A stretch of DNA of 64,000 nucleotides, from assembly GCA_951406725.2 (NCBI GenBank), contig OX597822.1, positions 18,538,001 through 18,602,000 of the forward strand, in the 5' to 3' direction. A program made the position numbers. This DNA is from Octopus vulgaris (taxonomy: Eukaryota). Of the stretch, positions 48,001 to 51,000 are shown piece by piece (within the stretch, counting starts at the first letter, position 1; every line of letters starts with the position of its first letter).

Positions 48001-51000
48001 TCTTTCTTCTGAATCTAACATTTTAATCTCACATCATTTTATAAAATTGTTATTGGACAATTGTAGTTATTCTGTCAATTACAATTCTGTACTGTACTTA
48101 CTTATGGCTCGTTAACTCTCCATTTTATCTCATTAAATCATATCAAATTGAATAAAATGAGAATCTAATGATTTTTGTCGCAATATTTCTCTTTTAATTT
48201 TGCAAATTTAAAAAAAAAAAATTTCATGTTAAATCATATCTTTAAATTAATTTCATTGAGAGATAATTACTTATAACAACCAGAAATTGAGGAATTCATC
48301 AGTTCTCACTTGATGTTCCAACATTTTCATGTTTGCTTTAAATTTTATATTTAGTTGGAGAATGGCTGTAACAATATTAAGAGAACATAGGAATGAAAAA
48401 CTAATATTATATCTAAATATGACTGTGTGTGTGTGTGTTCACACAAAAACACATATACATATATTTATAATATATATATACACACACACACACACATATA
48501 TATATATATATATATATATATATATATATATATATATATATATATATATATATATATATATATATATATATATATATATATATATATATATATATATATA
48601 TATATATATATATATATATAAATATAAGAGAGTGGTCACTATATTGATCACTCTAGCACCAGTTAATCCAAAAGGTTTCAACCACGAAAAATACATGTTT
48701 CCCATGAAAGCCAGTACGACTGTTAGCTCACACGGACAGGGCAAATAAAAAATAACAAAAATACAGATTATTTTGGGACAATTGTTTCGCTATTAATGAA
48801 TTAAATGTAATATTACTTACAATAATCCATTTGTAGCTCTTCAGCCAAGACTATCTGGATGAAATCCACTCAATCACACGCCAGATTTTACCATAACGAT
48901 AAATACGCGTGCGGTTCAATTGATTACATCGGACGTTATAATTCAAATGCCCCAACCAACAGCGCGCCAAACTCTCACGGAAAACAAATACAGCATTTAG
49001 AAATAAATGCAGCATAATTATAATTAATTAATAAGGGTGAGAGAATTAGATACTAATTTAATAGTATATTTATTCCACACCAAGTGGCCTAGTGCTACGA
49101 GAAACCTGGATTATTATAATATTTTATAACATATTATAATATTTTCACAAAATAAATATAAGAGAGTGGTCACTATATTGATCACTCTAGCACCAGTTAA
49201 TCCAAAAGGTTTCAACCACGAAAAATACATGTTTCCCATGAAAGCCAGTACGACTGTTAGCTCACACGGACAGGGCAAATAAAAAATAACAAAAATACAG
49301 ATTATTTTGGGACAATTGTTTCGCTATTAATGAATTAAATGTAATATTACTTACAATAATCCATTTGTAGCTCTTCAGCCAAGACTATCTGGATGAAATC
49401 CACTCAATCACACGCCAGATTTTACCATAACGATAAATACGCGTGCGGTTCAATTGATTACATCGGACGTTATAATTCAAATGCCCCAACCAACAGCGCG
49501 CCAAACTCTCACGGAAAACAAATACAGCATTTAGAAATAAATGCAGCATAATTATAATTAATTAATAAGGGTGAGAGAATTAGATACTAATTTAATAGCG
49601 GATTTCATCCAGATAGTCTTGGCTGAAGAGCTACAAATGGATTATTGTAAGTAATATTACATTTAATTCATTAATAGCGAAACAATTGTCCCAAAATAAT
49701 CTGTATTTTTGTTATTTTTTATTTGCCCTGTCCGTGTGAGCTAACAGTCGTACTGGCTTTCATGGGAAACATGTATTTTTCGTGGTTGAAACCTTTTGGA
49801 TTAACTGGTGCTAGAGTGATCAATATAGTGACCACTCTCTTATATTTATTTTGTGAAAATATTATAATATGTTATAAAATATTATAATAATCCAGGTTTC
49901 TCGTAGCACTAGGCCACTTGGTGTGGAATAAATATACTATTAAATTAGTATCTAATTCTCTCACCCTTATTAATTAATTATATATATATATATATATATA
50001 TAAATATAACAAAACTTACTGGGAGGAGATGAAACGAAACGAATTGAACCGACGCGAGGGTGCTCAGTCATACAATAGTGTAATAAATAAAACATACATA
50101 CATACATATATGTACGTACCTACATCTACATGTATATATACATGCATATATAAATATATATACGTGAGTACAGGACACCACAAATAGACGTAGAACTCAA
50201 TGAGAAACGAAAACGTAAAAACAAACGTGGAAACGGACCTAAACAAAAAAAACAGAGTACAAGACAAACTACACAAGGAAAAATCCCCTTCATCAGCTGT
50301 CCCTAGTTCAACTCCAGCGTGTTTCGAAGGTGAGGACAGAACACGACTAGTGGAACTAGTCCTTCCTGCGAAGGAATTAAATAAAATTACTTCGCAGAGG
50401 AGTAAAAACAAGGAAAGTTAAACATGTGACAAAACCAGGACGTAAAAACGATACAAATAAAATTACAAAATAAAATACAGAATAAAAATACAAAAAATAA
50501 AAATACAGAATAAAATTACAAGTACGAAAAATACAGTACAAGAATAAAACAAACAAAAAAAACAGACAATGAGGGCCTTAATGCTGGCCTACATGAGGAA
50601 AGATTCTAAGAGCGCTAGATATATATATATATGTAGGTGCAGGCGTGGCTGTGTGGCAAGAAGCTTGCTTCCCAACCATACGGTTCTGGGTTCAGCCTCA
50701 CTGCCTGACATCTTGGACAAGTGTCATTTAAAGTGTTAAGCCAACTGAAGTCCTGTGAGTGGATTTGGTAGAAGAAACTGAAAAATGCCCATTGTATATA
50801 CATATATATATATATATATACGGGGTGTCCCAAAAGTCACTGATGGGTTTCAATTTTTAAAAACTTTCTTAACTTTAAAAAAAAATGCATGCAATTTTGG
50901 TACAATATAAAGGACATAATGGAAATTAATATGCACAAGTCAAATTTTGCAACACCACTACATAATATATATGCACCATAACACCATCAAGAGTTTCAGA

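What the first reader, a model, noticed from the sequence alone, without database searches (positions are those of the whole stretch)
48621..49980. Young hammerhead-bearing 534-bp concatemer with a junction-spanning inverted arm: candidate retrozyme or circular-RNA retroelement
Seen: about 1.8 near-identical head-to-tail monomers, each with an intact HHR on the same strand exactly 534 nt apart. A 380-bp inverted segment follows that itself crosses the monomer junction and carries a third HHR. There is no ORF, and the array sits in (TA)n. Known: metazoan non-LTR retrozymes are tandem non-coding repeats with type I HHRs that yield monomeric and circular RNAs, and PLEs give tandem and inverted pLTRs. 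Inference: cleavage of a minus-strand transcript releases a 534-nt monomer that can circularise, and the permuted endpoints reflect reverse transcription of a circular or multimeric template by a Penelope-like RT. I am not aware of this being described in this lineage.
Basis: partly seen in the sequence, partly recalled or inferred. Interest (0 to 1): 0.9.

Follow-up and report, generated by a model that had tools for sequence, protein, structure and literature searches.

The report
Young hammerhead retrozyme insertion in (TA)n
A very recent, non-coding 534-bp mobile repeat that carries a self-cleaving hammerhead ribozyme landed in a TA microsatellite as a head-to-head tandem/inverted composite; it is a new example of the known animal "retrozyme"/Penelope-associated kind, not a new kind of element.

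Summary
A 534-bp unit is present as 1.84 head-to-tail copies (48618-49598) followed by a 391-nt inverted arm (49597-49987) that is colinear with a tandem. All duplicated parts are 100% identical except 3 bases at the arm ends, and (TA)n flanks both sides. Each copy carries a complete type I hammerhead (HHR). The catalytic core is intact, helix III is 2 bp with a palindromic tetraloop, and helix II is long. Rfam RF00163 scores 26.6 bits, below the gathering score of 34. The unit has no ORF, is not CpG-depleted, and the 534-nt cleavage product folds far better than shuffles. A diverged, also head-to-head relic next to another (TA)n lies at 12.7-13.1 kb, so this is a mobile family. Partial tandem, inverted copy, 3' ends outward and a (TA)n target match what is published for Penelope-like element (PLE) insertions. 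Tandem non-coding type I HHR units are published non-LTR retrozymes. I found no PLE gene in the window, and no RNA, cleavage or copy census could be tested. An unrelated repeat nearby shows the same head-to-head shape. Verdict: new member of a known kind, moderate interest.

The parts
48453..48626 (.). Left (TA)n microsatellite. It lies inside a compound TG/CA/TA tract and abuts the 3' end (sense orientation) of the direct copies.
   Evidence: TRF period 2, 87.5 copies; sequence read
48618..49151 (-). Full 534-bp unit, copy 1. The HHR-bearing sense strand is the minus strand.
49152..49598 (-). Partial unit, copy 2 (unit positions 1-447), 100% identical to copy 1.
   Evidence: 447-nt identity run
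49597..49599 (.). Inversion junction. AG at 49597-49598 is shared by both arms (2-nt microhomology). Position 49599 is C where both arms predict T.
   Evidence: Read
49597..49987 (+). Inverted arm: the reverse complement of unit 397-534 followed by 1-253. Its sense strand is the plus strand, so it lies head-to-head with the direct copies, 3' ends outward.
   Evidence: 388 of 391 matches; I1 and I2
49979..50008 (.). Right (TA)n, abutting the 3' end of the inverted arm.
   Evidence: TRF period 2, 15 copies
48771..48850 (-). Type I hammerhead of copy 1. The core box is CUGAAGA, followed by GAAA and GUC. The predicted cut follows C at 48777.
   Evidence: RF00163 26.6 bits; pattern match; descriptor scan
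49305..49384 (-). Type I hammerhead of copy 2, identical to that of copy 1. The predicted cut follows C at 49311.
   Evidence: Pattern match 49378-49311; the extent is placed by the 534-nt offset and was not searched separately in Rfam
49617..49696 (+). Type I hammerhead of the inverted arm. The predicted cut follows C at 49690.
   Evidence: RF00163 26.6 bits, model positions 1-45
48777..49310 (-). Predicted 534-nt monomer RNA between the two minus-strand cleavage sites.
   Evidence: MFE -155.8 kcal/mol, z -7.43, 0 of 100 shuffles as stable. Helices I and II form and the core stays unpaired.
12683..13130 (.). Old, diverged relic of the same family. It consists of (TA)n at 12683-12720, an arm at 12725-12865 (unit ~405-534 then 1-~35, same orientation as the direct copies), and an opposite-orientation arm from ~12877 (unit ~204 down to 1, then 534 down to ~495). 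It is head-to-head. Its HHR is dead: the CUGANGA box is missing.
   Evidence: blastn 81% over 63 nt; nhmmer E 0.0031; local alignment; inverted repeat 12820-12862 / 13041-13083 at 91%; alignment A1; no Rfam HHR hit

Best explanation
The locus is one recent insertion of a non-autonomous, non-coding retroelement of the animal non-LTR retrozyme type. The unit is 534 nt and carries a type I hammerhead.

Inferred origin. An RNA template holding at least ~2.5 units, either an unprocessed multimer or a circle copied round and round, was reverse-transcribed from both nicked strands of a (TA)n microsatellite. One cDNA started at the AU-rich stretch around unit position 1 and ran 1.84 units. The other started at the A/U-only stretch around unit 397-418 and ran 391 nt. 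The two were joined head-to-head at a 2-nt microhomology. This is the insertion pattern published for Penelope-like elements, so a PLE enzyme elsewhere in the genome is the most likely mobiliser.

Inferred RNA behaviour. On minus-strand transcripts that start inside the array, the two hammerheads would cut after GUC and release a 534-nt RNA. They probably pair as a dimer through the palindromic ACAAUUGU, because helix III alone is only 2 bp. Host tRNA ligase could then circularise the product.

Shown here: the anatomy, the sequence identity, the motif and folds, the lack of an ORF, the CpG state, and a second family member. Inferred: reverse transcription, the enzyme, cleavage and circularisation.
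For: 1. Anatomy and identity of the copies.

2. HHR.
- The conserved core is complete (CUGAAGA, GAAA, GUC). Helix II closes with G-C.
- RF00163 covers the full model at 26.6 bits, E 6.6e-5.
- My descriptor (core plus 4-bp helix II plus 4-bp helix I) hit these 3 copies and 1 other site in the window. Only 1 of 100 block-shuffled windows gave any hit.
- In the MFE of the whole 534-nt monomer, helix I forms (11 bp with two 1x1 loops) and so does helix II, while the core is left single-stranded.
- Helix III is 2 bp with a palindromic AAUU loop, the type described for metazoan type I HHRs that act as dimers (PMC4209133 passages; PMC7229834 Results). The intermolecular 8-bp helix III is -7.8 kcal/mol against 0.0 for the monomer.

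3. Retrozyme features.
- No ORF beyond chance and GC 33%.
- The monomer fold has z -7.43 on the sense strand and -5.99 on the antisense strand.
- Published non-LTR retrozymes are tandem non-coding repeats with type I HHRs, low GC and self-paired circles. Consensus lengths of 51-972 bp are reported.

4. Youth. There are 0 differences in 447 + 383 duplicated nt. The unit has 15 CpG against 5.0 expected at the window's depletion (P 2.5e-4), and only 1 of 116 tiles is as CpG-rich.

5. Mobility. A diverged relic of the same family sits beside another (TA)n, with the same head-to-head layout and a matching 3' end at unit ~400-411.

6. PLE-type integration in the literature.
- Partial tandems plus an adjacent inverted 5'-truncated copy, and a microsatellite bias: (TA)n for Naiads, and hypothesised to be EN-linker-mediated in Neptune (PMC8557442 passages).
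- A purified PLE protein cleaves and extends both DNA strands, prefers AT-rich targets, initiates internally on unprocessed RNA, and does not need HHR cleavage (PMC11167929 main text).
- Retrozymes have been proposed, and in Xenopus shown by phylogeny, to derive from PLE pLTRs.

7. Terminus. The unit's most (TA)n-like 12-mer (9 of 12) is at position 532-533, exactly at the direct array's terminus.
Against: - The Rfam score is below the curated threshold (26.6 against 34). Larger searches did not list the hit.
- The 52-nt helix II insert is atypical. The isolated 113-nt HHR segment folds only modestly better than shuffles (z -2.13, 4 of 200 shuffles as good), and its MFE is not the HHR fold in helix I.
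- There is only one independent intact HHR sequence. The relic lacks the 5' half of the core, so there is no covariation support.
- I found no PLE gene in the window. 19 of the 55 ORFs of >=110 aa plus one shorter ORF were scanned in Pfam, and only LINE-type RT/EN/PHD domains appeared. A six-frame regex found no GIY-YIG-like motif.
- Head-to-head near-identical inverted pairs are not specific to this element. An unrelated repeat at 54105-54886 (arms 98-99%) and a mariner-like pair at 50859-51604 (92-96%) show them too. The architecture alone therefore does not prove a PLE enzyme.
- A read-through transcript would sequester the HHR of copy 2 (68 of 68 nt) in a 386-of-391-bp duplex.
- The (TA)n could in principle be a tail made during insertion rather than a pre-existing target.
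- No expression, cleavage, copy-number or read-level data could be examined.
Confidence: 0.68

Rival explanations
1. The element is the same retrozyme-like unit, but it was mobilised by a LINE enzyme, SINE-fashion. The inverted arm would then come from twin priming or template switching during LINE target-primed reverse transcription.
For: - Five LINE-like RT remnants lie in the window, including a 581-aa open RVT_1 frame 2.2 kb away.
- An unrelated repeat at 54105-54886, which I read as SINE-like (recalled, not confirmed; ARAGORN found no tRNA), has the same head-to-head layout.
- Cervera & de la Pena 2020 leave LINEs open as mobilisers (Discussion).
Against: - I saw no poly(A) tail and no 3' similarity to the neighbouring LINEs. 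blastn and nhmmer with the unit hit only the array and the 12.7-kb relic.
- Type I HHRs, tandem copies and co-occurrence link retrozymes to PLEs in the literature.
- Extension from both strands and internal initiation are shown for a PLE protein.
Confidence: 0.14
2. The composite arose at the DNA level. A single HHR-bearing satellite or pLTR copy was duplicated in tandem and then in inverted orientation by replication template switching or repair, with no retrotransposition of a multimer.
For: - The junction has a 2-nt microhomology plus one odd base, as in replication-based rearrangements.
- Other inverted duplications, including a DNA-transposon relic, occur within 6 kb.
Against: - Both outer ends abut (TA)n, and so does the end of the independent relic.
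- The relic has the same two-arm layout with different inner junctions.
- The relic also reads continuously across the unit 534/1 junction, so that adjacency belongs to the family and not to this locus.
Confidence: 0.1
3. The inverted arm, the tandem, or both are an assembly artefact in a low-complexity (TA)n region.
For: - The copies are perfectly identical.
- The flanks are microsatellite.
- Craig et al. note that such PLE structures trouble assemblies.
Against: - The arms are separated by 192 nt and are not a zero-spacer palindrome.
- The junction is a specific microhomology.
- Both flanks are unique sequence.
- An old, mutated relic shows the same layout.
Confidence: 0.05
4. The hammerhead is a chance motif, and the repeat is an ordinary non-coding satellite or SINE-like element.
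For: - The Rfam score is sub-threshold.
- Helix II is long and atypical.
- The relic has lost the core box without obvious consequence.
Against: - The full core plus three compatible helices is expected about 0.01 times per window.
- The E-value is 6.6e-5 even after multiplying by 4227 families.
- Helix III is palindromic as in known metazoan HHRs, and the palindrome persists in the relic (ACAUGU).
- Helices I and II appear unforced in the full-length MFE.
Confidence: 0.03

Closest known systems
Metazoan non-LTR retrozymes (Cervera & de la Pena 2020, PMC7229834; Li, Clavereau & Pollet 2026 preprint, 10.64898/2026.07.22.740005)
   Same: - Tandem non-coding units, each with a type I HHR, and low GC.
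- A strongly self-paired predicted monomer that leaves the HHR free.
- A weak helix III with a palindromic loop, implying dimeric cleavage.
- A proposed PLE mobiliser.
   Different: - The unit is 534 nt. Invertebrate circles were reported at ~170-400 nt, though 534 nt is inside the 51-972 bp consensus range of the preprint.
- Only 1.84 copies are present.
- An inverted head-to-head arm and a (TA)n target are present. I did not see either described for retrozymes in the parts of those papers I read.
- Helix II carries a 52-nt extension.
- No RNA data exist for this element.
Penelope-like element insertions and their pLTRs (Craig et al. 2021, PMC8557442; Cervera & de la Pena 2014, PMC4209133; Frangieh et al. 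2024, PMC11167929)
   Same: - A partial tandem plus an adjacent inverted 5'-truncated copy.
- A microsatellite or AT-rich target.
- An HHR in the repeated non-coding part.
- A template read through the HHR site.
   Different: - There is no RT/GIY-YIG ORF, and the repeat period is 534 bp rather than a 3-4 kb element.
- The HHR has a helix III (2 bp plus a loop), unlike the minimal PLE variants that lack one.
- No 30-40 bp 'tail' could be assessed.
Amphibian satellite 2 / axolotl HHR repeats (as described in PMC7229834 Results), and the ~500-bp cave-cricket pDo500 satellite (recalled, not checked)
   Same: [quoted passage not shown]
   Different: Those are very high-copy arrays. This is a dispersed, low-copy, freshly inserted composite with an inverted arm.
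L1 twin priming (Ostertag & Kazazian 2001; recalled, not read here)
   Same: A 5' inverted segment joined to a direct 3' segment at a microhomology, with 3' ends outward.
   Different: In L1 the two segments are adjacent, non-duplicated parts of one mRNA. Here the periodic template makes the arms duplicates, overlapping by 51 nt in phase by my arithmetic.

Membership tests
Hammerhead ribozyme, type I (Rfam RF00163) | Conserved core: CUGANGA box, GAAA, and a cleavage triplet NUH | tested here: met
   CUGAAGA, GAAA and GUC are present in all 3 copies.
Hammerhead ribozyme, type I (Rfam RF00163) | Three helices around the core, with helix I open (type I) | tested here: met
   - Helix I: 11 bp with two 1x1 loops, closed by the rest of the monomer.
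- Helix II: 4 bp (G-C closing pair) plus an extended hairpin.
- Helix III: 2 bp plus an AAUU loop.

Hammerhead ribozyme, type I (Rfam RF00163) | Score at or above the curated gathering threshold (34 bits) | tested here: not met
   26.6 bits; absent from the gathering search. The 52-nt insert in helix II costs score.
Hammerhead ribozyme, type I (Rfam RF00163) | Self-cleavage at the predicted site | not testable with these tools
   Needs in vitro transcription of monomer and dimer.
Metazoan non-LTR retrozyme | [quoted passage not shown] | tested here: met
   1.84 direct units, each with an HHR 534 nt apart, plus one in the inverted arm. The array is short.
Metazoan non-LTR retrozyme | Non-coding and low GC (<50%) | tested here: met
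   Longest frame 69 aa, matched by 31.6% of 500 shuffles; GC 33%.
Metazoan non-LTR retrozyme | No LTR, PBS or PPT | not tested
   There are no terminal repeats other than the unit itself. PBS and PPT motifs were not searched.
Metazoan non-LTR retrozyme | Stable, highly self-paired predicted monomer or circle | tested here: met
   MFE -155.8 kcal/mol, z -7.43, 0 of 100 shuffles as stable. It was folded as a linear molecule, not as a circle.
Metazoan non-LTR retrozyme | Expressed as linear and circular monomer RNAs | not testable with these tools
   No transcriptome was available.
Metazoan non-LTR retrozyme | Dispersed multi-copy family | tested here: inconclusive
   Two loci in 64 kb. No eukaryotic genome collection was available. 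Two scans of the prokaryotic collection returned 0 hits.
Penelope-like element (autonomous) | ORF with a telomerase-like RT and a GIY-YIG endonuclease | tested here: not met
   The unit has no ORF. No GIY-YIG appeared in Pfam scans of 20 ORFs or in a six-frame regex.
Penelope-like element (insertion signature) | Partial tandem, an adjacent inverted 5'-truncated copy, and a microsatellite or AT-rich target | tested here: met
   compared with passages and the main text. The signature is not exclusive: an unrelated repeat in the window shows an inverted pair too.

The most novel reading that the evidence does not exclude
The locus is an undecayed snapshot of a retrozyme integration event. A 534-nt circular RNA would have been copied by rolling-circle reverse transcription from both nicked strands of a (TA)n target. 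Each cDNA would have been primed by annealing of the TA-rich DNA end to an AU-rich patch of the circle, and the two were then joined head-to-head. That would be direct structural evidence that retrozyme circles are integrated by dual-strand, microhomology-guided PLE-type priming. It would also show that such insertions are born carrying a ~390-bp hairpin that could feed small-RNA or RNA-editing pathways and silence the family.
Probability: 0.2. Interest if true: 0.6.

Novelty: new member of a known kind. Interest (0 to 1): 0.4.

Why it matters
Animal retrozymes and PLEs have been linked by co-occurrence, shared HHR type and, in frogs, sequence phylogeny. How a retrozyme RNA is put back into DNA has not been shown.

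An undecayed insertion with both ends and the internal junction readable gives concrete, testable parameters:
- where the cDNAs started (AU-rich patches next to (TA)n, one of them used twice in this window);
- that the template ran through the cleavage site;
- that both target strands were probably extended.

If a genome-wide census confirms these end points and finds a PLE with a matching terminus, the family would be a good model for retrozyme mobilisation in an invertebrate, possibly a mollusc.

In itself the element is an ordinary member of a described class.

Tried and rejected
- Rfam at gathering threshold on the whole window gave 0 matches. At E<=1 on 2.6 kb it gave only microsatellite-driven miRNA look-alikes (mir-297, mir-466 and others) and no HHR. 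I treat those miRNA hits as low-complexity artefacts.
- A first HHR pattern with a helix II gap of 4-34 nt found nothing. The helix II insert is 52 nt, so a gap of 30-60 nt was needed.
- I considered the neighbouring 581-aa RT (52201-53946, minus strand) as the element's own ORF, because it lies upstream on the sense strand. I rejected this. It is RVT_1 plus a PHD-like finger with YADD, which is LINE-like, has no GIY-YIG, and has a second copy at 30019-30915.
- Two scans of the prokaryotic genome collection with HHR-derived patterns found 0 loci. That collection cannot hold the host genome, so this says nothing about copy number.
- ARAGORN found no tRNA in the window. My reading of the 54.4-kb repeat as tRNA-derived therefore stays unconfirmed.
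- A second HHR-like site at 45061-45013 (minus strand) came out of my descriptor but has no Rfam HHR hit even at E<=10, and it sits in a local inverted repeat. I left it as a lead.
- Lineage: the Atlas search with the RT gave 'commonest Mollusca' for 2 of the 5 listed clusters. This is a lead only. My impression that the window's repeats look cephalopod is recalled and untested.
- Literature searches. 'retrozyme' + 'octopus' returned 3 papers (2 listed), none about such an element judging by title and abstract. In 'retrozyme' with 'twin priming', 'inverted repeat' or 'microsatellite', none of the 12 listed papers holds both 'retrozyme' and 'twin priming'.
The supplementary figures S4-S9 of PMC7229834 and file S1 of PMC8557442 may hold mollusc retrozyme or PLE sequences that bear on novelty.
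- Complex prediction, structure prediction and fold search were not relevant and were not used.
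Full report
**1. What is there**

A 534-bp unit occurs once in full (48618-49151). It is followed head-to-tail by a second copy that stays identical for 447 nt, up to 49598.

From 49597 to 49987 the sequence is the reverse complement of unit positions 397-534 followed by 1-253. 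The inverted arm is therefore itself colinear with a tandem. It matches at 388 of 391 positions, and the 3 mismatches sit at the two arm ends.

At the inner junction the dinucleotide AG (49597-49598) belongs to both arms. Position 49599 is C where both arms would give T.

(TA)n lies directly outside both ends: 48453-48626, within a compound TG/CA/TA tract, and 49979-50008. The window has no N, and nothing in it was taken for human.

**2. The ribozyme**

Position and strand. A 68-nt stretch with the complete hammerhead core (CUGAAGA ... GAAA ... GUC) occurs three times: at 48844-48777 and 49378-49311 on the minus strand, and at 49623-49690 on the plus strand. 0.08 matches are expected per window, and 0 of 100 shuffles gave three. 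They are copies of one sequence, so this is one independent occurrence.

Rfam. In a 141-nt search, Hammerhead_1 (type I) aligns over its whole model at 26.6 bits, E 6.6e-5, on each strand where expected. The score is below the curated 34 bits. The hit was filtered out of the 64-kb gathering search and of the 2.6-kb search at E<=1. The cost comes from a 52-nt insertion in helix II.

Descriptor scan. My own descriptor asks for the core, a 4-bp helix II, A15.1-U16.1 and a 4-bp helix I. It found these three sites and one other (45061-45013, minus strand). Only 1 of 100 windows shuffled in 1-kb blocks gave any hit.

Helices:
- Helix II starts with G-C and continues into a long hairpin.
- Helix III is 2 bp capped by the palindromic AAUU. 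The 8-mer ACAAUUGU is self-complementary and forms an intermolecular helix of -7.8 kcal/mol, while the monomer segment does not fold at all.
- Helix I is 11 bp with two 1x1 loops. It is closed by the rest of the unit, which makes this a type I hammerhead.

A short helix III with a small palindromic loop is what Cervera & de la Pena describe for metazoan type I hammerheads that cleave as dimers in tandem transcripts (PMC4209133 passages; PMC7229834 Results).

Weak points. The isolated 113-nt segment is only modestly more stable than shuffles (z -2.13, 4 of 200 as good), and its own MFE does not draw helix I correctly. There is also no covariation evidence.

**3. The unit as an RNA**

Cutting after C at 49311 and 48777 on the minus strand would release exactly 534 nt.
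- That RNA has an MFE of -155.8 kcal/mol (z -7.43, 0 of 100 shuffles as stable). Helices I and II are formed and the catalytic core is unpaired.
- The antisense strand gives z -5.99.
- The unit has no reading frame beyond chance: 69 aa at most in a trimer, which 31.6% of 500 shuffles reach. Its GC content is 33%.
- It carries 15 CpG where the window's depletion (observed/expected 0.35) predicts 5.0 (P 2.5e-4). Only 1 of 116 equal-sized tiles of the rest of the window is as CpG-rich.

Together with zero differences over 447 + 383 duplicated bases, this marks a very recent arrival.

**4. A second family member**

At 12683-12720 there is another (TA)n, followed directly by a diverged copy.
- One arm at 12725-12865 corresponds to unit ~405-534 and continues across the junction to ~35. 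The evidence is blastn at 81% over 63 nt and nhmmer at E 0.0031 with a permuted query.
- From ~12877 an arm in the opposite orientation runs from unit ~204 down through 1 and on to ~495 (local alignment).
- The two arms share an inverted repeat, 12820-12862 / 13041-13083, at 91%.

So this old locus is also head-to-head with 3' ends outward, and its inner junction differs from the young one.

Its hammerhead has lost the CUGANGA box through a 16-nt gap. It keeps GAAA followed by the palindrome ACAUGU and GUA, and Rfam finds no HHR there.

Its (TA)n-adjacent end (unit ~400-411) coincides with the outer end of the young inverted arm (~397-402). The young direct array ends on the unit's most (TA)n-like 12-mer, 9 of 12 at position 532-533.

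Three of the four arms in the two loci run through the HHR cleavage site. Three cross the 534/1 junction, and the fourth, the young direct array, contains it. Their templates were therefore uncleaved multimers or religated circles, not cleaved linear monomers.

**5. How it most likely arose (inference)**

The layout is a partial tandem plus an adjacent inverted 5'-truncated copy in a (TA)n tract. That is the one published for PLE insertions (PMC8557442 passages).

A purified PLE protein has been shown to do the following (PMC11167929 main text):
- cut and extend both strands of AT-rich DNA;
- start reverse transcription inside the RNA;
- use unprocessed RNA as template;
- insert without needing HHR cleavage.

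Non-LTR retrozymes are proposed to be mobilised by PLEs (PMC7229834 Discussion). In Xenopus they are sister to PLE pLTRs (preprint Results).

My reading is therefore dual-strand target-primed reverse transcription in a (TA)n tract. One cDNA started near unit 1 and ran 981 nt. The other started near unit 397 and ran 391 nt. They were joined at AG.

By my arithmetic, a single template would need at least 1321 nt (2.47 units), with a 51-nt overlap in phase between the two cDNAs.

Perfect identity of all repeats fits a circle copied several times. It fits equally well a multimer from a homogeneous array. The data do not separate the two.

**6. Evidence that limits this reading**

- I found no PLE gene in the window. 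Pfam scans of 19 of the 55 ORFs of >=110 aa, plus one shorter ORF, found only LINE-type domains (RVT_1, Exo_endo_phos_2, zf-RVT, PHD) or nothing. A six-frame regex found no GIY-YIG-like motif and six YxDD sites, five of them in open LINE-like context.
- Head-to-head pairs are not unique to this element. 54105-54440 / 54539-54886 is a 98-99% inverted pair of an unrelated repeat with a 98-nt spacer. 50859-51138 / 51264-51604 is a 92-96% inverted pair of mariner-like fragments. The architecture alone therefore does not identify the enzyme, and DNA-level inverted duplication occurs here too.
- The minus-strand transcript of the whole locus folds with 386 of the 391 arm pairs formed. All 68 nt of the copy-2 hammerhead are buried, and only the copy-1 hammerhead stays free. 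Release of the 534-nt RNA from this particular locus thus needs transcription to start inside the array. Otherwise the locus would mainly make a long hairpin.

**7. Comparison with what is known**

In function and form this is a non-LTR retrozyme. The differences are of degree:
- the unit is 534 nt, against ~170-400 nt for invertebrate circles, but within the 51-972 bp consensus range of the 2026 preprint;
- helix II is long;
- the array is very short;
- an inverted arm and a (TA)n target are present. I did not find these mentioned for retrozymes in the parts of the retrozyme papers I read.

It is not an autonomous PLE. Retrozymes are already published for a mollusc, the mussel. PLEs are reported as recently active in Octopus vulgaris (PMC13282606 passages). 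The host lineage of this window is not established: Mollusca is only a lead.

**8. Verdict**

- Novelty: a new member of a known kind.
- Interest is moderate (0.4). The value lies in a readable, undecayed integration product that makes the retrozyme-PLE integration question testable, not in a new kind of element.

**9. What stayed unchecked**

- Copy number and end-point distribution in the genome, and the autonomous partner.
- Read-level support for the assembly.
- Any RNA or cleavage evidence.
- The supplementary files of the papers cited.
- The closed protein and contig searches were not used.

Noticed in passing
window 45013-45061 (minus strand): A second hammerhead-like candidate from my descriptor. 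It has CUGAAGA, a helix II with a GGAACC/GGUUCC hairpin, GAAA, the palindromic UUGCAA, a UA cut site and a 6-bp helix I. There is no Rfam HHR hit even at E<=10, and it lies in a local inverted repeat (45110-45150 mirrors it).
   Followed up: partly
window 54105-54440 / 54539-54886: A head-to-head inverted pair (98-99% complementary, 98-nt spacer) of an unrelated repeat. The spacer holds what looks to me like a tRNA-derived SINE head (recalled B-box resemblance; ARAGORN found no tRNA) and a CA/TA filler. It has the same 3'-ends-outward layout as the HHR element, so it acts as a control against a PLE-specific reading.
   Followed up: partly
window 50859-51138 / 51264-51604: An inverted pair (92-96%) of mariner/Tc1-like transposase fragments. 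The translations share the same C-terminal peptide block; the transposase assignment is recalled, and Pfam gave no hit for the two ORFs.
   Followed up: partly
window 52201-53946 (minus strand); also 30019-30915 (+) and 33510-34313 (-): A 581-aa open frame with RVT_1 plus a PHD-like zinc finger and YADD, LINE-like. Related, more decayed copies lie at 30-34 kb in inverted orientation (arms 31179-31633 / 33506-33965, 77-81%). The nearest Atlas clusters are RVT_1+PHD, with Mollusca the commonest recorded phylum.
   Followed up: partly
window 23929-27090 (+) and 54876-56600 (+): Two further LINE remnants. The first has Exo_endo_phos_2 plus RVT_1 across frame-shifted ORFs. The second has RVT_1 followed by zf-RVT.
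   Followed up: partly
whole window: Strong CpG depletion (observed/expected 0.35-0.37, median 0.26 in 534-bp tiles) with TG+CA excess (1.30). This suggests a methylated animal genome. The HHR unit stands out at 1.05.
   Followed up: yes
window 51772-51891 and 51935-52126: A 63-bp tandem repeat (1.9 copies, 84% matches) and a 94-nt direct repeat at 98-nt spacing (96%), just downstream of the LINE ORF. Their nature is unknown.
   Followed up: no
window 48416-48557 and 50092-50185: Sub-threshold Rfam matches to mir-297, mir-466, mir-1277, mir-3149 and mir-568 on the TG/TA microsatellites flanking the array. All are far below gathering scores and look like low-complexity artefacts.
   Followed up: yes
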